Part shown: piece by piece, positions 4,201 to 63,949 of the stretch
Layout of the letters: each line of letters opens with the position of its first letter
Numbering within the stretch: the stretch's first letter is position 1
Assembly (NCBI GenBank): GCA_031426555.1
Contig: JANPLN010000024.1
Coordinates: 1 to 64,000 of the forward strand
Direction: 5' to 3'
Origin: Bdellovibrionales bacterium
GTDB lineage: Bacteria; Bdellovibrionota; Bdellovibrionia; Bdellovibrionales; JAGQZY01
Length of the DNA: 64,000 nt
Made by a program: the position numbers and the translations under genes
Notes under the pieces: model-generated
What the model was told of the DNA's origin: nothing
Seen by the model: only the letters and a program-made list of their open reading frames with translations
The model's database searches: none

Positions 4201-5259
4201 ATTGGGGCAAAAAATATTCCCATCGATCTAAATCTGCATATCGACAACATGGATCTCAACATCCCCCCACAGGTGAACACCGTGGGAAGCGCCGACTTAA
4301 AATTGTCCGGACAGTGGCTGCCCTTTCAACTCACTGGCACTTACCATGTGATCGACGGCCTTATTACCAAAGAGTTCACCTCAGGAGAGGGCGAAACTAA
4401 AAATGCCCACGAAATTTTTCTCCCCCAAGCCCTGCGCAACGAAGATCAATCTCCTGTGGTGTTAAAGCTAGAAATCATTCCCTCGGTGCCTCTCAACATA
4501 AAAAATAGTCTCATCGACGGAAAAGTTCAGGGACAAATCAGTGTTTCTGGCACACCCAAGGCTCCGATTCTTGGTGGGCAAATTCAATTTACCAAATTTT
4601 CGCAGATTCTCTTTCGGGATATTGTTTTCCGTGTGCGCGACTCAAATATCGCGCTCAATAACACCAATCCCCCAAACCCGGTTTTGTATATCTTGGCAGA
4701 TGCTCGCTACAAAGGCTATGATATCGAAATGCTCGTTCAGGGGTCCGCTGATAAACCTAAATTCACTCTCACCAGCCAGCCGTCTCTTACGCAGCCCGAA
4801 ATTATATCGCTTCTAGCCTTGGGCTATACAACCAACGAAGCTTCGTTGAGCAACGCCAACGCCACAGGAGGGATCACCAACACGACCAGCAACATCAGTA
4901 GTGATTCACAAGGTATGCAAGTTGGAACAAATGTATTCGGGCAAAATCCACTAGGGAAAGAATTCAAGAATCGCTTTGGGGTGGACGTTCAATTTTCTTC
5001 GCGATTTGATACAAACTCCAGTGTCGCTGTACCTACCATCGGTTTTTCGAAGAAGATCTCCGAAAGAACCTCCTTTGTGGGCAGTGTGCAAACTGGCAAA
5101 GTGGATACAAAAGAGGGAAAACTTCGATATGAACTGGACAGAGGATTTGCCGCCACAATGAGCGTGCAGTCACTAGGGCAGCAGGATAATGTCATAAATG
5201 GCAATACAATCACTGATATTTTAGGTATCGATCTTGAGTTTAGAAAAGAATTTAAATGA
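1279..5259 (+). CDS. TamB/AsmA-like translocation and assembly module protein
   Basis: 1326 aa with an N-terminal TM anchor, beta-rich repeats, and a DUF490-like C-terminus (LTSQPSLTQPEIISLLALG ... IDLEFRKEFK). Coupled to an Omp85 gene. Confidence 0.85.
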   Translation: MRFSRSRIFFLVFVVVLAIACTIPWQNKDLDQWVNKKLTFYSHKFLPVGLTVSHVEFKILPPTLSFYSAVVTPHEQKIKALLDPFEIGRITLQPSIAHLLIGRLHLAKIEMDSSRIKAHYTTTESSEDMKIELEKILHQIPITQVQLSNIQASVNVTHKGQDFSTVISPLSATITNDLNNLLVKLRAEKLKFQIDGDSVLKNTFFETHFFLTEKNFVLSDFKIKEQDSFLVASGSTQHILSKKNIKSGKLNIRAYMKASHGKDLARLFASHADLSQLQPLDGAVKTDLRFDIMSMADFNLETRTYVYKLEYDKFRIGDVDVSGTYQHAKQQFNVEKLKIENSGFEGELGAAKISLKDFSLTETEVLIKSFSLNPFLKYAINKDIPAHVEGNGKTLCSGAFQPLRIDCRGEIEGKNILVNPKPERPLLSLPEALKAVGNFTVTAKEVTYKASINAGHSTGESDGEINYKTGFMINYSTPLLDFNVVKKLAGLDVGGKAKIQGFTKGNSRAAIFELSLDGKEMMLEKYLLGDISHQLKYKEGVLLVPKIQGAASSSRYLGNLQILLDKNRINGKIQFPFVDLSVMQSSIKENLSLPVEVTGSGAAIVTIDSLLDPEKLSFKAKARLYNCTVDQQHIEMADLDLSSETGKISIVNAVFEEKNSQAQLTGFIHLDRKEFELGFQSPKVYLDDIVYATKYSTPTRGLFSVKGNIGGPFRAPNVDVDFISDNFHLAGKKIAPIKGRAEIFSSKTVAQITGPNNFKFIFRNIHHLPDYQIEGMTEQFDIAPLVTSLLGIEHTDDFKIDITSNFNIKIPRNHPETMSGYLHVPALMVDTEKSKLTSSKEISLFFTQGKINFSPFEMVGTGGDIKFKSNATNVPLDILISGVFSLSFAHLLTPFLETIEGQTTINVRLQRSSQRLEFFGSAFIDNGYLKIPDVQHAVENLKVDLLFNQDRINLNSLKAKFASGQLLGDGSIRLIGAKNIPIDLNLHIDNMDLNIPPQVNTVGSADLKLSGQWLPFQLTGTYHVIDGLITKEFTSGEGETKNAHEIFLPQALRNEDQSPVVLKLEIIPSVPLNIKNSLIDGKVQGQISVSGTPKAPILGGQIQFTKFSQILFRDIVFRVRDSNIALNNTNPPNPVLYILADARYKGYDIEMLVQGSADKPKFTLTSQPSLTQPEIISLLALGYTTNEASLSNANATGGITNTTSNISSDSQGMQVGTNVFGQNPLGKEFKNRFGVDVQFSSRFDTNSSVAVPTIGFSKKISERTSFVGSVQTGKVDTKEGKLRYELDRGFAATMSVQSLGQQDNVINGNTITDILGIDLEFRKEFK

Positions 5260-8051
5260 GATATTTTTTATTCTGTTTCTTCATTCTAACAAACTCCTGG
5301 CTTTTGGCCGAGGACTCCCTGCGCTTTCGAGACGCAGACTTTGCCGAAATCAAAAAGATTTCGAAATTTAAAAAAAATAGTTTCAATCAAGAGCAGCTTA
5401 ATGAGCTGATCAAGGAAATTACCCTCAAAAAAGATTTCACTGTGGCAAAAGTTAATTTCGAGAAGGGTTTTTTGACGTTAGACTTAAAGGAAGTTGCCAG
5501 CCAGCAAAAGTTGGAAATTAACGGTAATCAGGCACTGACTTCCAGTGAAATTTTGAGCCTCCTCGAAATCAGTAATCAGCAAATGGTGGACAAGGAGCTG
5601 ATTGAGAGAAATCTCAATAAATTGAAAGAAAAATATGAATCCATCGGACTAAAAAAAGTTTCTATCCAGCTCAAAGAAAAGGTGGACGGAAAAAATTTGA
5701 TCTTTGCTCTGGACATTAACGAGGGAACCACGGCCATGCTCAAGGAGGTCAGCGTCCTCTCAAACAACCCTTATCTTAACAATTATGTCCGCTACAAGCT
5801 CAGGTCCTTCATTGATAAAAAGATTGATAAAACGATGATTAAAACCATCGAACAGATCGTCGCTGAGGTCCTCATTCAAAACAGGTATCTGGACGCCAAA
5901 GTGACAAAGATTTCTCCGATTTATAATTTAGATCGCACAGAATCCCGCCTGGTACTGACCATTGAGACCACAGCAACCTATGAGTTCTTGTTCTACGGAA
6001 ATAAATACTTTTCTGCTGGCAATCTTCTCTCTCATCTAGATCTAGAAAAAAACTTCCTTAATTATATCAAAAATCAAAAGCTCCTCGTAAAAAACATCGA
6101 GGATTACTATCACGCGGCGGGCTTTGCAAACACAGTGGTGACCAGCAAAGTGCACTTTTTTGAAAAAATGAACAAATATGTTCTACAATTTAATATCAAA
6201 GAGGGAACGCAAATACATATTAAAGACATTGAGATTTCAGGGAAAATATCGCGCAGTCCTAATCACTACCGCACGGCTTTCTACAATCTTCTTTCGGACT
6301 ACAAAAATGCACATTTTTTTATCCAGGAAAACCTGGTTAAAGCGTCGGATCGCCTTATCTTACAACTTAAGGACGAAGGCTACTTGCGCGCCGAAAAAAT
6401 TTCATTGGAATTTAAATTTTTTGGTAAAGATTCGGTTGTTGTGCAATTACAAATTAACGAAAACATTTTAACGCAAATTCGTAATATTACCTTTACTGGC
6501 TTAAAAAACTTTACAGCGTCCCAACTCTACGACGTCATCGAACTTAAGCCAAACACGCCTCTGAATTTGGTAAAGCTTTTTAATAGTTACTCACAACTGA
6601 AATCATTTTATCAAAAAAATGGATACCTTGAGTTTGAAAACTTAGCCACGCCAGAAAAACTGGTAAAATACATGGATAACTTTGAATTTGCCGATATCGC
6701 CTACGAGTTTAGAGAAGGCCCGCAGATTCGCATCAAAGATGTTCAGGTGCGCGGCAATACGTTTACCAAAGACAAAGTGGCCATTCGCGAATTGGATCTC
6801 ACTCAAGGTGATGTTCTCACCTCTGACCGGGTCAGTGACTCCGTGGTCTTTCTCGAGCGAACGCAGCTTTTTTCGCGGGCGCAAATTAATACGAGTGATC
6901 CAAACTCCGAAATATCAGAGCGCACGGTTTTTGTCGATGTGCAGGAAAAAAATCCCGGCCTCCTCGCTTCGGGTCTTGGACTTTCCAACGAGTGGGGTCT
7001 TACCGTTCGTTCTTATTTAGGTATTAGCTATCAAAACCTCGGCGGAACCGGTCGCGGTGTCAGTGCTCGTGCCGATGTAAAGTACTCCGTTGACCCCAAA
7101 GTGAGCTACCCACAAAATCGAATCGTGCTCGGCTACTACGAACCTTATTTGTTTTTCAATCGACTGCGGGCCCGAATTTCCGTTGAACGCGAACAACAGA
7201 TCTTTTTTCGCCTCGGCGGCGGCGATGCGGAAGTACAGGAGAGAAATGAAATCAATTTTCTGTTGGAAAAACAAATCAATCGTCGTCTTCGACTCATTTG
7301 GCACTTTTGGGATCTATCCTATCTTCGCTTTTTTGCAAAGGATTCCGGAATCGATACATCGAAAGTTAAGATAGCAAACATTGGCCCGGCCATTGAGTGG
7401 GATCGGCGCGACGATATTTTTGTTCCACGGGACGGTTCGTTTTCGGTGGCACAAATAGAGTACTCAAATCCAGTCCTTGGAAGCACGCAAGATGCGAATA
7501 ATTACATCGATTTTGTAAAGCTCACTGCGGGGCATATCAGCTACACTCCCCTTTCCCCAACAAAACGATGGGTCCTCGTAAACGAAGTGCGGGGGGGCTA
7601 TGTTGATAATTTAAGTCATCGGCCAGAGTCAGGTATTCCCGGCGCCCGTCTCTTTTTTCTTGGTGGTCGCGCGGCGCTACGTGGATATGATTTGCGCGAC
7701 AACGAACGGGTTCCAAGTCTCCGTGAAATCTGCGGCACAGTGTGCACTTCGATTTCTGACTTTAAAGTTCAAACGGCCTCGCATTATTACATCACGAAGA
7801 ACGAAATTCGTTTTCCAATGAGCGGCGATAATTTTGGCGGCCTGGTGTTTTACGACGGCGGCGCTGTATTTATTGACGGCGCTGATATTCAAGATCACTA
7901 CCGCGACACAGCCGGCTTTGGCCTTCGCTATGTAACACCAATTGGCGCCTTCACGGGCGAAATCGGCTTCAAACTCGATAAGAAAAAAGAATCCGCACGC
8001 TATCCCAACGAAAACGCCTTCACCATCCACTTCTCCATGGGAACGTTTTAA
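5256..8051 (+). CDS. Omp85-family outer-membrane protein (BamA/TamA-like) with multiple POTRA domains
   Basis: Signal peptide, repeated POTRA motifs (GNQAL, GNKYF, GLKNF, GNTFT), barrel motif FFLGG-x3-LRGY, GFGLRYVTPIG, terminal Phe. Confidence 0.9.
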   Translation: MRYFLFCFFILTNSWLLAEDSLRFRDADFAEIKKISKFKKNSFNQEQLNELIKEITLKKDFTVAKVNFEKGFLTLDLKEVASQQKLEINGNQALTSSEILSLLEISNQQMVDKELIERNLNKLKEKYESIGLKKVSIQLKEKVDGKNLIFALDINEGTTAMLKEVSVLSNNPYLNNYVRYKLRSFIDKKIDKTMIKTIEQIVAEVLIQNRYLDAKVTKISPIYNLDRTESRLVLTIETTATYEFLFYGNKYFSAGNLLSHLDLEKNFLNYIKNQKLLVKNIEDYYHAAGFANTVVTSKVHFFEKMNKYVLQFNIKEGTQIHIKDIEISGKISRSPNHYRTAFYNLLSDYKNAHFFIQENLVKASDRLILQLKDEGYLRAEKISLEFKFFGKDSVVVQLQINENILTQIRNITFTGLKNFTASQLYDVIELKPNTPLNLVKLFNSYSQLKSFYQKNGYLEFENLATPEKLVKYMDNFEFADIAYEFREGPQIRIKDVQVRGNTFTKDKVAIRELDLTQGDVLTSDRVSDSVVFLERTQLFSRAQINTSDPNSEISERTVFVDVQEKNPGLLASGLGLSNEWGLTVRSYLGISYQNLGGTGRGVSARADVKYSVDPKVSYPQNRIVLGYYEPYLFFNRLRARISVEREQQIFFRLGGGDAEVQERNEINFLLEKQINRRLRLIWHFWDLSYLRFFAKDSGIDTSKVKIANIGPAIEWDRRDDIFVPRDGSFSVAQIEYSNPVLGSTQDANNYIDFVKLTAGHISYTPLSPTKRWVLVNEVRGGYVDNLSHRPESGIPGARLFFLGGRAALRGYDLRDNERVPSLREICGTVCTSISDFKVQTASHYYITKNEIRFPMSGDNFGGLVFYDGGAVFIDGADIQDHYRDTAGFGLRYVTPIGAFTGEIGFKLDKKKESARYPNENAFTIHFSMGTF

Positions 8052-8060
8052 AAGTACGGA

Positions 8061-8242
8061 CACACTATTGGGATTCATTGAATTAAATTTGTGATTCCTA
8101 AATTCCAGAAGAGTTCATTTTAAGACACGTCCATCCCTGGACTCGCTCGCGAAATCAAACATCCTGTTTGCGAGAGGTCTTAAAATAAACTCTTCTGGAA
8201 TTTAGGAATCACAAATTTAATGCAATGAATCCCAATAGTGTG
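8061..8242. repeat. Fold-back element A: 66-bp inverted arms (2 mismatches) around a 50-nt structured core
   Basis: Arms 8061-8126 and 8177-8242 are reverse complements. The core contains GTCCA-TCCC-TGGAC and CAAACA-TCC-TGTTTG hairpins and TCGCTCG...CGAGAG. Confidence 0.95.
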
Positions 8243-8313
8243 ACGGCAAACTTTAAGAGCGCTCAAAAGGTCTCAGATACGAGGCGACGAGGTAAAATCG
8301 CACGGAGGTGGCT

Positions 8314-22334: not shown

Positions 22335-24167
22335 TTACTCTTGGTTGTTGCGGAGTTCTTTGAGTTTATCGCCAAAAACATCGCCCAAACTTGATTTAGA
22401 GCTTGTAGATTTAGCAGCGTACTCGCCGACATTGCCGTTCTCTTCGCGAAGTTTCGCAAGACGAACGCTCAGGCCCACTTTACGGGCTTCCTGATCGATA
22501 CTGATCACTTCAGCGCGAACTTGATCGCCAACGCTAACAACCTCACTTGGGCTGCCGATACGCTGCGAAGAAAGCTCACTGATGTGGATCAGACCTTCTG
22601 CGTCTGGGCTCAATTCAACAAAGGCTCCAAAGTCTGCAAGGCGAACAACTTTTACTTCGTGAGTAGAACCCACGAGGAATCGTCGCTCAACATCTTGCCA
22701 AGGATCGCCCTCAAGCTGTTTTACACCAAGACTGAAGCGTTCGTTCTCAACATCAACGCCAAGAACAACGGCGCGGACTTTTTGTCCTTTAGTGAACATT
22801 TCTGAAGGATGATTTACGCGCTTCGCCCAAGAGAAGTCAGAAACGTGCACAAGGCCGTCGATTCCGTCTTCAACACCAACGAACACACCGAAGTCGGTGA
22901 TTGATTTAACTTCACCTTCGATGATGGTTCCAGGCTGATAAGTTTCTTTGAGTTCAAGCCACGGATTGGTTTCGAGTTGTTTAAGACCAAGGCTGATGCG
23001 GCGGTTTTCTTGATCGATATCAAGAACCATGGCGCGCACTTCGTCACCCACATTGAGAGCTTGTGATGGGTGTTTGACCTTCTTCGTCCAGCTCATTTCG
23101 CTAACGTGGATGAGACCTTCAACGCCTTCGCCGATTTCAACAAATGCACCGTAGTCTACGAGGCTCGTAACTTTTCCAGTAACTTGGCTGCCTTTAGAGT
23201 ATTTTTCGGCAGTATCAAGCCATGGATCTTTTTGTAATTGTTTAAGACCAAGACTGACGCGTTCTTTTTCTTGATCGTATTTAAGAACCATCACTTCGAT
23301 CTCATCACCCACATTGAGAACTTCTGATGGATGCTTGATGCGTCCCCAGCTCATATCCGTGATGTGTAAGAGTCCGTCCATACCACCCAAATCAAGGAAG
23401 GCGCCGTACTCAGTGATGTTTTTCACCATACCGCGGATCACAGATCCTTCTTTCATCGCATCCATGGTTTGTGTTTTCATGGACTCGCGTTCTTCTTCGA
23501 GAAGGGCGCGGCGAGAAAGTACGATGTTGCCACGTTTCTTGTTAAACTTGATAACTTTGAATTTATATTTTTTGCCGATGTAAACATCCATATTGCGCAC
23601 TGGACGTAGATCAATTTGGCTACCAGGTAAGAAGGCTTTGACACCGATGTCCACACTGAGACCGCCTTTAACTTTTGCGATAACAGTACCTTCGATGAGC
23701 TCTTGGTTTTCAGCGGCGCGAGTGATGTCGTTCCACGCTTTGTACATGTCGGCTTTGTCTTTAGAGAGCACGATCATGCCGTTTTCGTTTTCGATTTTAT
23801 CGATAAACACTTCCACTTCATCGCCGGGCTGAACCGACAATTTGCCTTCGACAAAACGGAATTCATTGATGGGAATAAGACCTTCAGATTTATAGTTGAT
23901 ATCTACAAGAACGTAATCTGTTTGAACTTCCACGATTTTGCCTTTAACGATATCGCCAACTTTATAATCGCGATCCTGTAAAGACTGTTCAAACATTGCA
24001 CTGAACTCAGTCATTGCTTCTTTTTGCTTCGCTTGAACATCTTCATGAAAAAGATCTTCAATCTGATTTTGCTTCATCTGCTTTTTGGTCATGTTTTTTG
24101 TAGCTTGCATGAGTATGTTTATTCTCCCTTGCGAAAACTTTTGTGCATCTTGGTTTGTTTGTTGCAT
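22335..24167 (-). CDS. rpsA: 30S ribosomal protein S1
   Basis: Six S1 repeats (YGAFLDLGGMDGLLHITDMSW etc.). Start may be 24167 or 24110. Confidence 0.97.
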   Translation of the reverse strand: MQQTNQDAQKFSQGRINILMQATKNMTKKQMKQNQIEDLFHEDVQAKQKEAMTEFSAMFEQSLQDRDYKVGDIVKGKIVEVQTDYVLVDINYKSEGLIPINEFRFVEGKLSVQPGDEVEVFIDKIENENGMIVLSKDKADMYKAWNDITRAAENQELIEGTVIAKVKGGLSVDIGVKAFLPGSQIDLRPVRNMDVYIGKKYKFKVIKFNKKRGNIVLSRRALLEEERESMKTQTMDAMKEGSVIRGMVKNITEYGAFLDLGGMDGLLHITDMSWGRIKHPSEVLNVGDEIEVMVLKYDQEKERVSLGLKQLQKDPWLDTAEKYSKGSQVTGKVTSLVDYGAFVEIGEGVEGLIHVSEMSWTKKVKHPSQALNVGDEVRAMVLDIDQENRRISLGLKQLETNPWLELKETYQPGTIIEGEVKSITDFGVFVGVEDGIDGLVHVSDFSWAKRVNHPSEMFTKGQKVRAVVLGVDVENERFSLGVKQLEGDPWQDVERRFLVGSTHEVKVVRLADFGAFVELSPDAEGLIHISELSSQRIGSPSEVVSVGDQVRAEVISIDQEARKVGLSVRLAKLREENGNVGEYAAKSTSSKSSLGDVFGDKLKELRNNQE

Positions 24168-37493: not shown

Positions 37494-38327
37494 ATGCTGC
37501 TAAGAACACACTGGTTTTGGATCATAGGTGTCGGAGCTGCACTCGCTTGTTTGTTGGTCTTACCTCCAACATGGATCGAATCGTACTTCGGCCCCTCCAA
37601 CAGCTCAGAAAAAGTGCGCGTTGTGGTCGATTTTTACGGTAAGGTTGAAAAACGCTCGGCTCTGATGACAGGTCAAGATTCTGTTGCAAAAAACACCGAG
37701 ATTCAAAATGGCGATGTGGTGATGACCTTCGAAGACAGCAAGGTGCTACTTGGTTTTAACCCCACGTTCTGGCTCCTCCCCTACTCAAAAATGGAATTTG
37801 TAAAAGTGAATACCCAATGGAACGGTCGCTTGGTTTACGGCGAAGTCCGCAAAATCGAGTCCAAGGAAGACACTAAAAACCCGCCCATCGAGTTATTTTA
37901 TAATCAAGAGCGTATCGTCGACACTGAGTTTTCATCTTCGCGCGATGTGATCGTGGCCACTCTTGTCGGCCCCACGAGCGAGGGCTTTCAGGACATCGCG
38001 GGCCAAGAAGCAGCCCCGCAAAACAGTATCGAAAAACAAATTTTTCAAACGCTGCTGCTGCATAAAAAGTTTTTCCAAAGCTGCTTCATCAAATACTATA
38101 AAAATAAACCCGGCGAAAACATCCGCAGCGGAGAAACAGTTTTTGATCTCCTGATCGACGTCACCGGAACCATCGAGTCCGCCACCGTCACACGCTCCGA
38201 CATCAGCGACAAATACTACATGCAATGTTTGCAAATGGTTTTCGCCCGCATGCGGTTTAAAAACTTCCAAGCCACGGAGTCATTCCACGCCCTCTTCCCA
38301 CTGCAAGTGGAACTTCCAACCAACTAA
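37494..38327 (+). CDS. Membrane-anchored protein with FecR-like middle region and TonB-C/AgmX-PglI-like C-terminal domain
   Basis: N-terminal TM; IQNGDVVMTFEDSKV; C-terminal FQSCF...GETVFDLLIDVTGTI..A....SDI....MQCL...F..MRF. Confidence 0.65.
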   Translation: MLLRTHWFWIIGVGAALACLLVLPPTWIESYFGPSNSSEKVRVVVDFYGKVEKRSALMTGQDSVAKNTEIQNGDVVMTFEDSKVLLGFNPTFWLLPYSKMEFVKVNTQWNGRLVYGEVRKIESKEDTKNPPIELFYNQERIVDTEFSSSRDVIVATLVGPTSEGFQDIAGQEAAPQNSIEKQIFQTLLLHKKFFQSCFIKYYKNKPGENIRSGETVFDLLIDVTGTIESATVTRSDISDKYYMQCLQMVFARMRFKNFQATESFHALFPLQVELPTN

Positions 38328-38342
38328 CTTTTTTACTACGTT

Positions 38343-38470
38343 TTTTCTCTTGCGACTCCAAACTTCTCTTTTTAGGACGCGGACTCGTGTCCTCGCTCGT
38401 TTCGGCTTCGCCGATCGCGTCACGCTAACGAGAGGTCCGAAAAAGAGAAGTTTGGAGTCGCAAGAGAAAA
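38343..38470 (+). repeat. Fold-back element B: 36-bp inverted arms (1 mismatch) around a 56-nt structured core
   Basis: Arms 38343-38378 and 38435-38470; core GCGGACTCGTGTCCTCGCTCGTTTCGGCTTCGCCGATCGCGTCACGCTAACGAGAG. Confidence 0.95.
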
Positions 38471-38739
38471 TGAACCAAATCAACATGATTGCAAAAGTTC
38501 CCATGCCGTTAAGTGCCTCAAAATTTACCCACATACCTGGACGCAATGGGAGACTCCGTTTAGTGCCCAACAATTTTTCATGCATTTGGATTTAGTATAA
38601 AAGCTATTAAGTCCCCAAATGACAATCAGAGTATGAAACTTTTGAACATTCAGATTCGAGTGACGTTTTGTTTGCGAAAGTAAATCGTTCGTAACTTTTT
38701 CAAGAGGCGAATGATTATTTTGAAGTTTTAGGTAGGTTT

Positions 38740-38915
38740 TTTTCTTCGGTTTAAGTTTTTCTTATTTTTGCAATTTTTCAAAGTCTCTCTTTTTAGAACC
38801 TCTCGTTAGCGTGACGCGATCGGCGCAGCCGAAACGAGCGAGGGCACGAGCCCGCGGTCTAAAAAGAGAGACTTTGAAAAATTGCAAAAATAAGAAAAAC
38901 TTAAACCGAAGAAAA
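38740..38915 (-). repeat. Fold-back element C: perfect 58-bp inverted arms around an inverted copy of the element-B core
   Basis: Arms 38740-38797 and 38858-38915 are exact reverse complements. The reverse complement of 38798-38857 matches 38377-38436 at 56/60 positions. Confidence 0.95.
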
Positions 38916-38920
38916 CGATG

Positions 38921-40012
38921 TTATCTATAATCGTGGAAGTAATCGATTCTCTCGGGGACCCAGGGTTCGTGGACGCCCGAGATTTCAAACCCGCGGTCGC
39001 CAACATCAGTCATGATTCTGGAAGGAGCGATGGAGGGTTCGTAATCGGGGTGAATCAAACCAGAGTCTCGCAGGGCGGGAAACACGTCTTGAAATGTTTG
39101 TTCGCCAATCACTTGGCGACGGATCAAATCATCCAGAGATCTTTGCAGTTCATCCACGGTGAAACCGTAGTTTAGATAGAGATCTTTTCCTACACGTAAA
39201 ATATGATCCATGCTCAATCGGTTGTCTTGAAACAAATCCAATGCAATCTGAAACGAATTGTACGACGGTAGCATTCTCCTACCAAACTTCATGTAGTACT
39301 CGGGATCCGTATCCACCGCCAAGTTAATATAGATCTTTTCTACTGGATCCATCGCTTCGATTTGCTCTTGTTTGGCGAAAATGCGCTGAATCTGTTCTGA
39401 AGTGACCTGAAAAGTTTTGAGGACTTTTTCGCAATCTTCGTTTTGCAAGCGACGCGAACTAATATCGGAGTACAACGAATAGATCACGGCATCGGTTTCG
39501 CTGTCGTCGCCCCAAAGAACTTGTGAGATTTCTTTTTTTAACAACGTTCGTAAATACAGCAGAGCTGTCACTTTATAACCCACATGCTGGCGCAAGCGCC
39601 AAAAACGACCGGGCCATAAATTTCTGAGATTATCCTTAAAAAAGATGCCCAACGGCAAAATTTCGTCGGCTTGTAATTTTTCGCGGATCTTTTTTTCCAT
39701 CTGCGGCGGCGATGCAGTTATAAAAAAAATTGGAAACTGTTTTTGCTCACCATTTTTTTCATGCCAAAAATTTTTGAGGGAATTCACCAACGTTGACGTG
39801 CCGGGAACGTTGTTCCGGTGATAATTATCGGCAAAGGACGCGCGAAAAATATCCCGCAAGGATTGCCAATGGGTATCTAGGTAGGTTTTATCTAAATCCC
39901 ACACATACACTTCGTCAAAGGCGGCATAGTCAGAAATGGAAGTGTAACTAAAAAAAACAACGTCTCCGATGATTTGTACTTGTCGCTTTTTTTCGATTTT
40001 TTGCGAAGCCAT
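38921..40012 (-). CDS. HAD-like phosphatase domain protein (App1/lipin-like)
   Basis: VWDLDKTY (DxDxT), ITASP, K, WGDDSETD motifs. Confidence 0.7.
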   Translation of the reverse strand: MASQKIEKKRQVQIIGDVVFFSYTSISDYAAFDEVYVWDLDKTYLDTHWQSLRDIFRASFADNYHRNNVPGTSTLVNSLKNFWHEKNGEQKQFPIFFITASPPQMEKKIREKLQADEILPLGIFFKDNLRNLWPGRFWRLRQHVGYKVTALLYLRTLLKKEISQVLWGDDSETDAVIYSLYSDISSRRLQNEDCEKVLKTFQVTSEQIQRIFAKQEQIEAMDPVEKIYINLAVDTDPEYYMKFGRRMLPSYNSFQIALDLFQDNRLSMDHILRVGKDLYLNYGFTVDELQRSLDDLIRRQVIGEQTFQDVFPALRDSGLIHPDYEPSIAPSRIMTDVGDRGFEISGVHEPWVPERIDYFHDYR

Positions 40013-62443: not shown

Positions 62444-63949
62444 CTAAAGCCAACGGCGGCGCAACCACCAAAAGTTTGCCATAAATAAAAAACATAAGGG
62501 CAGTGGTATTGCAAAAAGTCCCACATACAATTTAAAGTTGGTGTCAGTGACAAGAAAGTCTTTTTTTACTTTGGTAGAATCCATGGGTTTTACCACGTCT
62601 TCATCGCGCGTCAGGTAGCCAAAAACATGGAACATAAAAAGCGGGTTTTGCTGTTGATATAAAAACTGATTAGCAAAAATATCAGAATCCGCACTCACCA
62701 CCATGGCACCTTTTTTAGTATTCTCCACCGCCATCACCAGGCGGTAAGAACCTCTGCCAATTTCTGGGTCTTGCTTGGTAAATCCTTTGCGTAAAATTGA
62801 CTCCTGGGTACTGACGATGACTGGAGACAATTTAAAATCGTGGGGCATGATTTCGGTAAGCGATCCAGTTACATAAAACATCACGGGCGAATCCTGCCCC
62901 ATGGTTTTTGTGATTGCGTGCGGCGCATCCGGTGGAGCCCAACCCGAAACCACAAAGGATCCCACATTAGCAATCGCATTTTGCTCTTGATGAACCACAC
63001 CTGCACTCATTTTTAAACCGTACTTAGCAAGCATCTCGGTCTCGTCAGCGTTTTGCACAGGATCAAACGCCACTAACAGACGTCCCCCTCCCTCGAAGTA
63101 GTTCCACACTTTTTGTTTAAAGGTTTCACTGAGGTTTTTTTCGGGAGCCAAAATCACTAAGGCCGCAGCGTTATCCGGTAAAACTTCTTTGTCCAAATTA
63201 ATTTCCTGCAACTCGTAAAACAGTCGTTCCAGTTCTTTTTTTAAGTCCGATACACCGCGCGGATTGGTGTTATCAAAGGTCAGTTCTCCATGACCCACCG
63301 TAAAATAAACAGTCTTTCGCCCTTTTAATAGCCGAAGCAGCGCCTGGGTCACACTGTTCTCGTCGGCCTTGTAAAAACGTTCGGCGCGATCTTTGTAAGT
63401 AACGAACATGGCCTGCTCTTGGGCGTTAAGGCGGTATTTTTTAGCGAGCTCTGGGTGTTCCATAATGTTAATTTTGGTAAGCTTCATCTGCGGGTTTTCG
63501 TCGACATACTTTTGCAGAGCCAAGCGAATGGTTTCATCGGCTCCTCGGCTGTTTTCGTCGGGCATTTGAAAATACAAAAACTCGACGGGATCTTTAAAAG
63601 ATTTAGCCACATCGCGACTGCGCGGGCTCAGCGTATGTGTTTGATCGGCAGTAAAATCGATCTTCCCCGGCAAATACGAAACGCCGTAATTCAAAACAAA
63701 TAGACCAGCAAATAAAATTAAAAGAATAAGACCCACGCTCATCCCACGCCGGGCCGTTTTGGCTGAAAGCAAATGCCAAAAATACTTTCGATCCAAAATA
63801 AGTCCGAAAACTAAAAACACACTTCCTGCGATTAAAAAAAATAACCCGGGCTCATCCCATTCGGAAAATAACGATCTTGCAAAAAGGGCGACGACTAAAA
63901 AAAGAGCGCTCAAAACGAAAGAAATACGACTCAATATTTTTACTCCCAT
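62444..63949 (-). CDS. GldG-like ABC transporter auxiliary component
   Basis: DFTADQTHTLS, VYFTVGHGE, YFEGGGRLLV, DSDIFAN, C-terminal TM + WWLRRR. Confidence 0.85.
   Translation of the reverse strand: MGVKILSRISFVLSALFLVVALFARSLFSEWDEPGLFFLIAGSVFLVFGLILDRKYFWHLLSAKTARRGMSVGLILLILFAGLFVLNYGVSYLPGKIDFTADQTHTLSPRSRDVAKSFKDPVEFLYFQMPDENSRGADETIRLALQKYVDENPQMKLTKINIMEHPELAKKYRLNAQEQAMFVTYKDRAERFYKADENSVTQALLRLLKGRKTVYFTVGHGELTFDNTNPRGVSDLKKELERLFYELQEINLDKEVLPDNAAALVILAPEKNLSETFKQKVWNYFEGGGRLLVAFDPVQNADETEMLAKYGLKMSAGVVHQEQNAIANVGSFVVSGWAPPDAPHAITKTMGQDSPVMFYVTGSLTEIMPHDFKLSPVIVSTQESILRKGFTKQDPEIGRGSYRLVMAVENTKKGAMVVSADSDIFANQFLYQQQNPLFMFHVFGYLTRDEDVVKPMDSTKVKKDFLVTDTNFKLYVGLFAIPLPLCFLFMANFWWLRRRWL

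What the first reader, a model, noticed from the sequence alone, without database searches (positions are those of the whole stretch)
38343..38915. Family of fold-back elements with a conserved structured core and copy-specific near-perfect inverted arms
Seen: elements B (38343-38470) and C (38740-38915, opposite orientation) share a 56-nt core with only 3 differences. Two of these form a compensatory pair in hairpin 1 (GGAC-TCGT-GTCC vs GGGC-TCGT-GCCC) and the third lies in a loop (TTC vs TGC). The core folds as a multi-branch junction: hairpin 1, TCG, then a CTCGTT/AACGAG stem enclosing TCGGC/GCCGA and GCGT/ACGC hairpins, then AG. The flanking arms (36 bp with 1 mismatch; 58 bp perfect) share only the core-proximal TCTCTTTTTAG and are otherwise different. 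Element A at 8061 has the same skeleton with a third arm sequence. Established: MITEs and REPs usually show the opposite pattern, with conserved termini. Inference: selection acts on structure. The arms may be generated or homogenised per copy (fold-back or template-switch copying of flanking DNA), or act as variable guide/duplex segments of a structured RNA or ssDNA element mobilised in trans. This is the best candidate in the window for an undescribed system.
Basis: partly seen in the sequence, partly recalled or inferred. Interest (0 to 1): 0.85.

Follow-up and report, generated by a model that had tools for sequence, protein, structure and literature searches.

The report
Capped hairpin repeats sharing transposase ends
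The hairpins are real copies of a repeat family in a Bdellovibrio-like bacterium that resembles the known but unexplained TwoAYGGAY motif; their long arms change between relatives yet stay mirror images, likely because one arm is copied onto the other, and some copies carry the exact end repeats of a transposase gene found in close relatives, which likely spreads them.

Summary
Observation confirmed. B, C and A belong to a family with 37 copies in this genome, plus 16 hairpins with two other caps. Read on the opposite strand, the cap resembles the TwoAYGGAY motif (Rfam RF01731: best copy 42.4 bits, cut-off 43; B and C do not hit). B and C are a four-way variant without GGA loops. The arms are not made fresh from flanks and are not guides: they share a skeleton. 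At 17 orthologous sites, 122 changes are mirrored on both arms against 39 on one arm. G·T mismatches favour one strand (27:6), and that strand is antisense to the gene whose stop codon the element abuts (27:1). All 7 doublets are divergent. Two sister genomes hold a RAYT-like transposase gene whose terminal repeats equal the outer arm ends of 13 of 47 copies here, including A but not B or C. Copies with these ends are often missing or re-capped at the same site in sister genomes. Best reading: TwoAYGGAY-like capped hairpins, partly mobilised by a RAYT and kept symmetric by arm-to-arm copying. The scan noted this kind of element before, here and in other genomes. New variant of a known kind.

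The parts
38343..38470 (-). Element B: arms 38343-38378 and 38435-38470, four-way cap 38379-38434; starts 15 bp after the stop codon of the + gene; the G·T-favoured (AYGGAY-sense) strand is -
   Evidence: orthologue in G003 with 7 mirrored and 3 single-arm changes in 36 columns
38740..38915 (+). Element C: arms 38740-38797 and 38858-38915, four-way cap 38800-38855; ends 5 bp from the stop codon of the - gene; cap deleted in G003, leaving a palindrome
38471..38739 (.). 269-bp spacer of the divergent doublet; no promoter- or terminator-like match; not similar to the other six doublet spacers
8053..8242 (-). Element A: arms 8061-8126 and 8177-8242, two-hairpin cap 8127-8176 with GGA in both loops; the gene-side end (8053-8072) matches the terminal repeat of the RAYT-like gene in G001 and G003
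   Evidence: p=0.005 against 200 shuffles
37494..38327 (+). Host gene abutted by B (weak AgmX/PglI C-terminal domain hit, below cut-off)
38921..40012 (-). Host gene abutted by C (363 aa, no NCBIfam hit, conserved in relatives)
5256..8051 (+). Omp85/BamA-like host gene whose stop codon is abutted by A

Best explanation
B, C and A are copies of a family of long DNA hairpins with a conserved branched cap that resembles the TwoAYGGAY motif; copies likely arrive beside stop codons as passengers of a RAYT-type (HUH) transposase, then stay in place while their arms drift and are kept mirror-identical, likely by copying one arm onto the other. Shown: the family, its fold, its one-strand G·T bias, its fixed polarity to the abutting gene, mirrored arm change at orthologous sites, empty and re-capped sites, and identity of young copies' ends with the terminal repeats of a RAYT-like gene in two sister genomes. 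Inferred: that this RAYT moves the long forms; that B and C are older copies whose ends eroded or which spread by another enzyme; that template switching or intra-element gene conversion mirrors the arms; that the cap is held by selection on the fold of one single strand. I lean to single-stranded DNA over RNA for that strand, about 55 to 45.
For: Family: 37 copies judged real, 34 with whole caps; 13 and 3 hairpins with two other caps; 14-31 matches in each of 5 sister genomes, 16 of 31 genomes hit; 5 of 121 across the phylum. Transposase link: a RAYT-like gene in G001 (L219; REP_Tyr_transpos 73.5 bits, cut-off 80) is flanked by 25-bp inverted repeats equal to the outer arm ends. Its 88%-identical homologue in G003 has the same 5' repeat at another site, which is empty in G000. 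The repeat is found on 8 of 24 two-hairpin copies, 3 of 12 and 2 of 3 copies with the other caps, and 0 of 8 four-way copies. Among G001 and G003 copies, 9 of 13 with the repeat are absent, cap-less or differently capped in G000, against 4 of 28 without it (hand count; Fisher p=0.0009; sites not independent; one unresolved site left out). The B/C site is empty in G004, G009, G010, G013 and G026, and holds another subtype in G005. Arm copying: 122 mirrored against 39 single-arm changes in 912 columns at 17 sites, where independent arms predict at most 13 against 239; 47% of mirrored changes are transversions against 39% in flanks (p=0.15), so there is no excess of the transitions expected from stepwise G·U compensation. 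There are 21 mirrored gap columns in 29 pairs, and in G005 eleven bases of the host gene end, stop codon included, appear inverted in the far arm. Cap constraint: caps differ at 79 of 1474 columns, arms at 13-16%, third-position-like sites at 26%. Strand: G·T against A·C mismatches 27:6 (p=0.0003), 13:4 and 3:0 for the three caps. DNA lean: 10 of 19 distinct C-G-closed triloops are G-N-A on that strand against 2 on the other (that such loops are very stable in DNA is recalled knowledge); no promoter enrichment upstream of 81 copies.
Against: B and C carry no detectable transposase end (p=0.35 and 0.86). G000 lacks the cognate RAYT with this query (best 37% identity). No copy scored in G002, G004 or G005 has the end repeat at p<=0.01 (0 of 37), and by eye the G010 hairpins do not end in the repeats of that genome's closest RAYT, so the link is limited to one clade and does not explain how older copies spread. 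No cap lies within about 1.5 kb of the RAYT-like genes in 33 loci searched, apart from a weak hit in L060. RAYT-like genes are common (24 of 31 genomes), so co-occurrence is uninformative. The G·T bias is absent in G004 (2:4) and G005 (3:2) on small counts. Persistent G·T pairs fit selection on a fold as well as copying. Arms evolve more slowly than third positions, so some constraint acts on them. No clean target duplication was established. No transposition or cleavage was observed.
Confidence: 0.55

Rival explanations
1. The elements are functional TwoAYGGAY-type RNAs (for example CsrA sponges) transcribed antisense to the abutting gene; the arms are kept paired by compensatory selection, and the RAYT ends are incidental insertions into a subset.
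For: One-strand G·U tolerance in arms and cap. csrA is present in G000 and 29 of 31 genomes. 13 of 34 copies have GGA in both loops (counted). CsrA binding is proposed for TwoAYGGAY (PMC4333381, passages). Caps evolve about five times more slowly than third positions.
Against: B, C and three more copies have no GGA loop (5 of 34). csrA was not found in G004 (99% complete, 29 copies; a draft assembly). No promoter enrichment. Mirrored transversions, mirrored indels and copied host bases are hard to reach by stepwise selection.
Confidence: 0.2
2. The cap, not the whole element, is the unit that moves: caps are exchanged between resident stems by ectopic gene conversion or a cap-directed nick, which also triggers arm homogenisation.
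For: The same insertion site carries different caps in sister genomes: third cap type against two-hairpin cap at C15:42850 and C30:73076; two-hairpin against four-way at site A and at the B/C site. Caps are near-identical within G005 while arms differ. Three cap types share one arm end.
Against: At the re-capped sites the inner arms differ too, as expected from replacement of the whole element. Orthologous caps are mostly unchanged.
Confidence: 0.15
3. One reading: the arms are generated per copy from flanking DNA, or serve as variable guide segments of a new trans-mobilised system.
For: Arm ends include inverted host sequence: 11 nt in G005 L037, 4 nt in G001 L096 and about 4 nt at C37:7003. 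Distal arms of B and A match nothing of note elsewhere in the genome.
Against: All arms share a skeleton, and the outer ends of young copies come from a transposon end. No match for C in phages or for B in plasmids; the best genomic match of the C arm is a 17-nt AT-rich word. No reverse transcriptase in G000. Arms are inherited at orthologous sites and drift.
Confidence: 0.05

Closest known systems
TwoAYGGAY motif (Rfam RF01731; Weinberg et al. 2010, PMC2864571; Gardner and Eldai, PMC4333381; preprint 10.64898/2026.09.22.753630)
   Same: Two capped hairpins on a long, poorly conserved basal stem with a U-rich 5' arm and an A-rich 3' arm. Seed rows show the same AAAC...GUUU first hairpin, ACGAY loop variants, YGA...GYGU flanks of the second hairpin and pairs of copies in opposite orientation. 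Multi-copy, with divergent doublets (published median 249 bp; B-C 269 bp; 7 of 7 here). REP arrays lie next to TwoAYGGAY in Pseudomonas.
   Different: No copy reaches the gathering score; B and C give no hit. The second hairpin sits directly at the junction. B and C have an extra triloop hairpin and no GGA loop. Stems are near perfect. Two unrelated-looking caps use the same stems. A transposase with matching ends is seen here and was not reported in the passages read.
REPINs and RAYT/TIRYT elements (Bertels and Rainey 2011, PMC3337134; Di Nocera et al. 2013, PMC3733652; PMC6006769)
   Same: Long hairpin whose inner sequence differs between copies but stays paired; central deletions leave palindromes; ends shared with the flanks of a HUH tyrosine transposase; ends abut or complete stop codons.
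   Different: A conserved branched cap sits in the centre. Most copies, B and C among them, lack recognisable ends. The cognate transposase was not found in this assembly.
Template-switch correction of inverted repeats (Lavi et al. 2018, PMC5941160, abstract read)
   Same: Imperfect inverted repeats are corrected towards perfect ones.
   Different: That work concerns short repeats that are conserved in sequence; here 36-79-bp arms around a 50-56-nt spacer change in sequence while staying mirrored.

Membership tests
TwoAYGGAY (RF01731) | Score at or above the Rfam gathering cut-off (43 bits) | tested here: not met
   Best 42.4 bits, and the reverse strand of the same copy scores 35.2, so much of it comes from the stem. 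B, C and A gave no RF01731 hit at E<=10.
TwoAYGGAY (RF01731) | Two hairpins on a common basal stem | tested here: met
   Covariation on 23 copies; B and C add a third hairpin.
TwoAYGGAY (RF01731) | AYGGAY-type loop on both hairpins | tested here: not met
   Not met for B and C (loops TGA and ACGA). GGA in both loops in 13 of 34 copies, A included. Seed rows also hold ACGAY variants.
TwoAYGGAY (RF01731) | Tandem G·A pairs below the second hairpin | tested here: inconclusive
   Here YGA...GY: one A·G pair plus G-C or G·T (15 and 7 of 23); full GA/GA in one distant copy (L196); GCGU and GUGU also occur in seed rows.
TwoAYGGAY (RF01731) | Long, poorly conserved basal stem; divergent doublets | tested here: met
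   Arms of 36-79 bp; 7 of 7 doublets divergent.
TwoAYGGAY (RF01731) | Expressed RNA; CsrA binding (proposed in print, not shown in what I read) | not testable with these tools
   No RNA holder listed.
REPIN / RAYT-TIRYT non-autonomous element | Inverted ends shared with the flanks of a RAYT-like gene | tested here: inconclusive
   Met for 13 of 47 scored copies in G000, A included; not met for B, C and all 8 four-way copies.
REPIN / RAYT-TIRYT non-autonomous element | Cognate transposase in the same genome | tested here: not met
   Found in G001 and G003 only, of 26 genomes searched; G000 best 37%; draft assembly of 72 contigs.
REPIN / RAYT-TIRYT non-autonomous element | Copy-variable inner sequence that still forms a hairpin; presence/absence among relatives | tested here: met
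REPIN / RAYT-TIRYT non-autonomous element | Binding and cleavage by the RAYT; observed transposition | not testable with these tools
   Needs biochemistry or population sequencing.
Classical MITE (DDE type) | Target-site duplication of fixed length | tested here: inconclusive
   Empty sites are drifted or hold other repeats; ends read TA then GGTACGG at stop codons, which does not separate a TA duplication from part of the end.

The most novel reading that the evidence does not exclude
TwoAYGGAY-like caps are strand-specific single-stranded DNA signals rather than RNAs. RAYT end repeats pick up different caps as interchangeable cargo and insert them with a fixed polarity at stop codons, and the cap then directs nicking and arm-to-arm repair. 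This would explain at once the copy-number swings, the divergent doublets and the variable yet perfect stems of the whole TwoAYGGAY family.
Probability: 0.2. Interest if true: 0.75.

Novelty: new variant of a known kind. Interest (0 to 1): 0.5.

Why it matters
TwoAYGGAY is a widespread motif with no proven function, and a 2026 preprint calls its mobile-element-like spread unresolved. These make the DNA-versus-RNA question and the mobility question testable in vitro.

Tried and rejected
Rfam gathering scan of the window: nothing; microRNA hits are generic long-stem matches. GIY-YIG: one gene in a 570-aa frame, not followed up. Reverse transcriptase: none found in G000. Nine short Y1-like genes show no obvious palindromic flanks by eye. 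Cap model over 33 RAYT and csrA loci: one weak hit. B/C motif in viral contigs: 0; in GTDB contigs: 25 loci, all titled Bdellovibrionales or Pseudobdellovibrionaceae. Transposase-end pattern in metagenome contigs: 0. Arms as guides: no phage or plasmid hit (each element was tried in one collection only). Helical phasing of A-tracts: no peak at 10-11 bp; the 16-17 peak reflects the shared skeleton. Sigma-54 and sigma-70 promoters upstream: at shuffle level. Intrinsic terminator: none; the T-run lies 5' of the stem. Hypermutation of arms: rejected, arms are slower than third positions. Sequencing runs: no RNA holder listed. The contigs laid come from the possible source run and from a relative; none spans both hairpins, and one relative contig skips 164 bases of the spacer, as G003 does. 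A first regex for polarity in relatives caught only 20 copies and was redone with a profile. A first structure string was shifted by one column (corrected). The paper search for Bdellovibrio, REP and RAYT together gave 0; 'TwoAYGGAY' gave 13 papers, 8 listed.

Full report
Observation. The three hairpins are as described. B (38343-38470) has 36-bp arms with one mismatch, C (38740-38915) has 58-bp perfect arms and A (8061-8242) has 66-bp arms. The 56-nt cores of B and C differ at three positions, two forming a compensated pair. B starts 15 bp after the stop codon of the upstream + gene and C ends 5 bp from the stop codon of the downstream - gene; A follows the stop codon of an Omp85-like gene. 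Titles of records holding the B/C motif name Bdellovibrionales.

The family. An iterated profile finds 39 hits in the 3.14-Mb genome; I kept 37 (E<0.03) and dropped 2 weak ones. Three of the 37 are cut by contig ends or half deleted, leaving 34 whole caps. Eight of these are the four-way type of B and C. Long hairpins with two other conserved caps number 13 and 3. A covariance model built from 23 of the 34 copies hits 16 of 31 genomes, G000 included, with 14-31 matches in each of the five sister genomes, and 5 of 121 genomes drawn across the phylum. Distant copies keep the same skeleton and copy-specific stems of about 26-60 bp.

Strand and polarity. Sister genomes give 40:16 in all, but G004 (2:4) and G005 (3:2) show no bias, and G001 and G003 share some mismatches with G000; distant genomes give 16:7. 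With a crude codon-based gene caller, a stop codon lies within 60 bp of the 3' end only in 27 of 50 copies, of the 5' end only in 1, of both in 12 and of neither in 10. In 48 copies from relatives the counts are 20, 6, 8 and 14 (p=0.009). The G·T strand is therefore antisense to the abutting gene. By established mutational biases, deamination of the coding strand would put G·T on the other strand, so this is not the expected mutational artefact (inference). All 7 doublets in G000 are divergent, which follows if each copy faces its nearest stop codon.

Relation to TwoAYGGAY. On the G·T strand the two-hairpin copies show loops such as AGGAT and ATGGAT. Rfam RF01731 scores them up to 42.4 bits against a cut-off of 43; the reverse strand of the best copy scores 35.2, and B, C and A give no hit. 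The seed rows in supplementary file 5 of PMC2864571 (parts 201 and 202 read) show the same first hairpin, ACGAY loop variants, YGA...GYGU flanks, U-rich 5' and A-rich 3' variable arms, and oppositely oriented pairs. PMC4333381 (passages) calls the outer stem poorly conserved and proposes CsrA binding. The preprint 10.64898/2026.09.22.753630 (abstract, passages and section 8 read) reports divergent doublets (68%, median 249 bp), an elongated basal stem in Bacillota, adjacent REP arrays and an unresolved mobile-like spread. Its supplements and Additional file 1 of PMC2864571 could not be read and may already describe polarity or transposase links. B and C work like members but fail the score and loop tests: 13 of 34 copies have GGA in both loops and 5, B and C among them, have none.

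How the arms evolve. Arms are inherited, not made anew. Aligned from the cap outward they share a skeleton over about 25 bases in G000 and, separately, in G002, G004 and G005. In 29 orthologous pairs, 212 columns changed on both arms in mirror fashion, 64 on one arm, 21 gap columns were mirrored and 9 mismatches were shared. Keeping one relative per site and dropping the misaligned C71 site and the G002 pairs leaves 17 sites: 122 mirrored against 39 single in 912 columns, where independent arms predict at most 13 against 239. Mirrored changes are 47% transversions against 39% in flanks (p=0.15). Arms diverge 13-16%, third-position-like sites 26% and caps 5%. B itself has 7 mirrored and 3 single changes against G003. 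In G005, eleven bases of the host gene end appear inverted in the far arm, and 4-base creeps are seen twice more. These patterns fit copying between arms (template switching as in PMC5941160, abstract read) better than stepwise compensation, though selection on the fold must account for the strand bias. The mechanism is inferred.

How copies move. The B/C site is empty in five relatives, holds a single copy of another subtype in G005, and in G003 has lost the cap of C. Site A is empty in G001, holds a four-way cap in G002 and another palindrome in G003. G000 has 12 Y1-transposase-like hits; two are flanked by GGTAC-type palindromes. A third RAYT-like gene, found in G001 and G003 but not in G000 or the other 23 genomes searched, is bounded by 25-bp inverted repeats identical to the outer arm ends of the long hairpins. 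It sits at different sites in the two genomes. The repeat is detected on 13 of 47 scored copies in G000, across all three cap types and including A, but on none of the eight four-way copies and none of 37 copies from G002, G004 and G005. Copies bearing it are absent, cap-less or differently capped in G000 in 9 of 13 cases, against 4 of 28 for the rest (hand count). Two sites carry the third cap type in G000 and the two-hairpin cap in G003 between the same ends. REPINs are known to have copy-unique yet paired spacers and to lose their centres (PMC3337134, passages); RAYT-like genes with terminal inverted repeats and ends that supply stop codons are known (PMC3733652 and PMC6006769, passages). 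So the young long forms look like non-autonomous RAYT elements carrying a structured cap. How B, C and the copies in farther relatives spread is not shown.

DNA or RNA. For single-stranded DNA: G-N-A triloops closed by C-G on the favoured strand (10 against 2 of 19; their stability in DNA is recalled), the HUH link, no promoter signal and the loss of GGA loops. For RNA: wobble tolerance, GGA loops in most distant copies and csrA in 29 of 31 genomes, though not found in G004, which has 29 copies. The data do not settle it.

Verdict. A real, well-supported repeat family; a new variant of a known kind that joins TwoAYGGAY-like caps to REPIN-like behaviour. Earlier notes of this scan reached similar readings on other parts of this genome and on other genomes. 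Interest 0.5.

Noticed in passing
G000 C25:58362-58841, C25:12360-12839, C20:29666-30148, C66:53889-54368, C72:27293-27766, C72:19924-20406, C7:11686-12165, C9:53222-53638, C69:33787-34074 (L001, L004-L010, L012): Nine dispersed paralogues of a ~160-aa Y1-transposase-like gene (two broken) share a conserved ~250-bp upstream region with recurring motifs but show no obvious palindromic flanks; possibly a distinct multi-copy HUH family with a structured leader.
   Followed up: no
G000 C1:9899, C2:85131, C2:105812, C8:18321, C16:14198, C30:26219, C45:44813, C54:30320, C54:63582, C57:58420, C59:1, C72:15718, C72:15988: Second cap type (33-41 nt, with a GC-GAA-GC or related hairpin) on the same kind of arms, with the same strand bias; its 3' half resembles a collapsed form of the B/C cap. 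No Rfam family fits the two copies scanned.
   Followed up: partly
G000 C15:42850-43085, C30:73076-73291, C42:7298-7510: Third cap type (88-91 nt, multi-branched); two of the three sit where G003 has the two-hairpin cap.
   Followed up: partly
window 8255-8313 and 63902-63929; also G000 C49:60135-60262 and L179: Fragment of another repeat family directly after element A; longer in G002 at the same site. The stretch after the Omp85-like gene holds different repeats in G000, G002, G003 and G004, and an inserted stretch in G005: an insertion hot spot.
   Followed up: partly
G000 C37:15380-15445 (L002), C30:24159, C64:75224, C19:1-100, C30:73353: A small GC-rich module bounded by GGTAC...GTACC flanks the broken RAYT at C37, stands alone at C30:24159, forms the 5' end of several long hairpins, and pieces of it are inserted inside caps in G001, G002 and G005.
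   Followed up: partly
L225, L228, L229, L240, L244 (RAYT loci of relatives): Several RAYT-like genes in related genomes end directly beside what look like tRNA genes (judged by eye, not scanned).
   Followed up: no
L255-L264 (G010); L103 (G001): In these four-way caps the extra hairpin carries an AGGA loop on the opposite strand, so GGA loops occur on both strands of one element.
   Followed up: no
L081 (G003), 5' flank of the element: A 9-bp tandem repeat of about ten units replaces the GC-rich module that G000 has at this place.
   Followed up: no
window 22693-23338: Three 124-nt repeats at 261-bp spacing inside the ORF 22335-24167, probably repeated protein domains.
   Followed up: no
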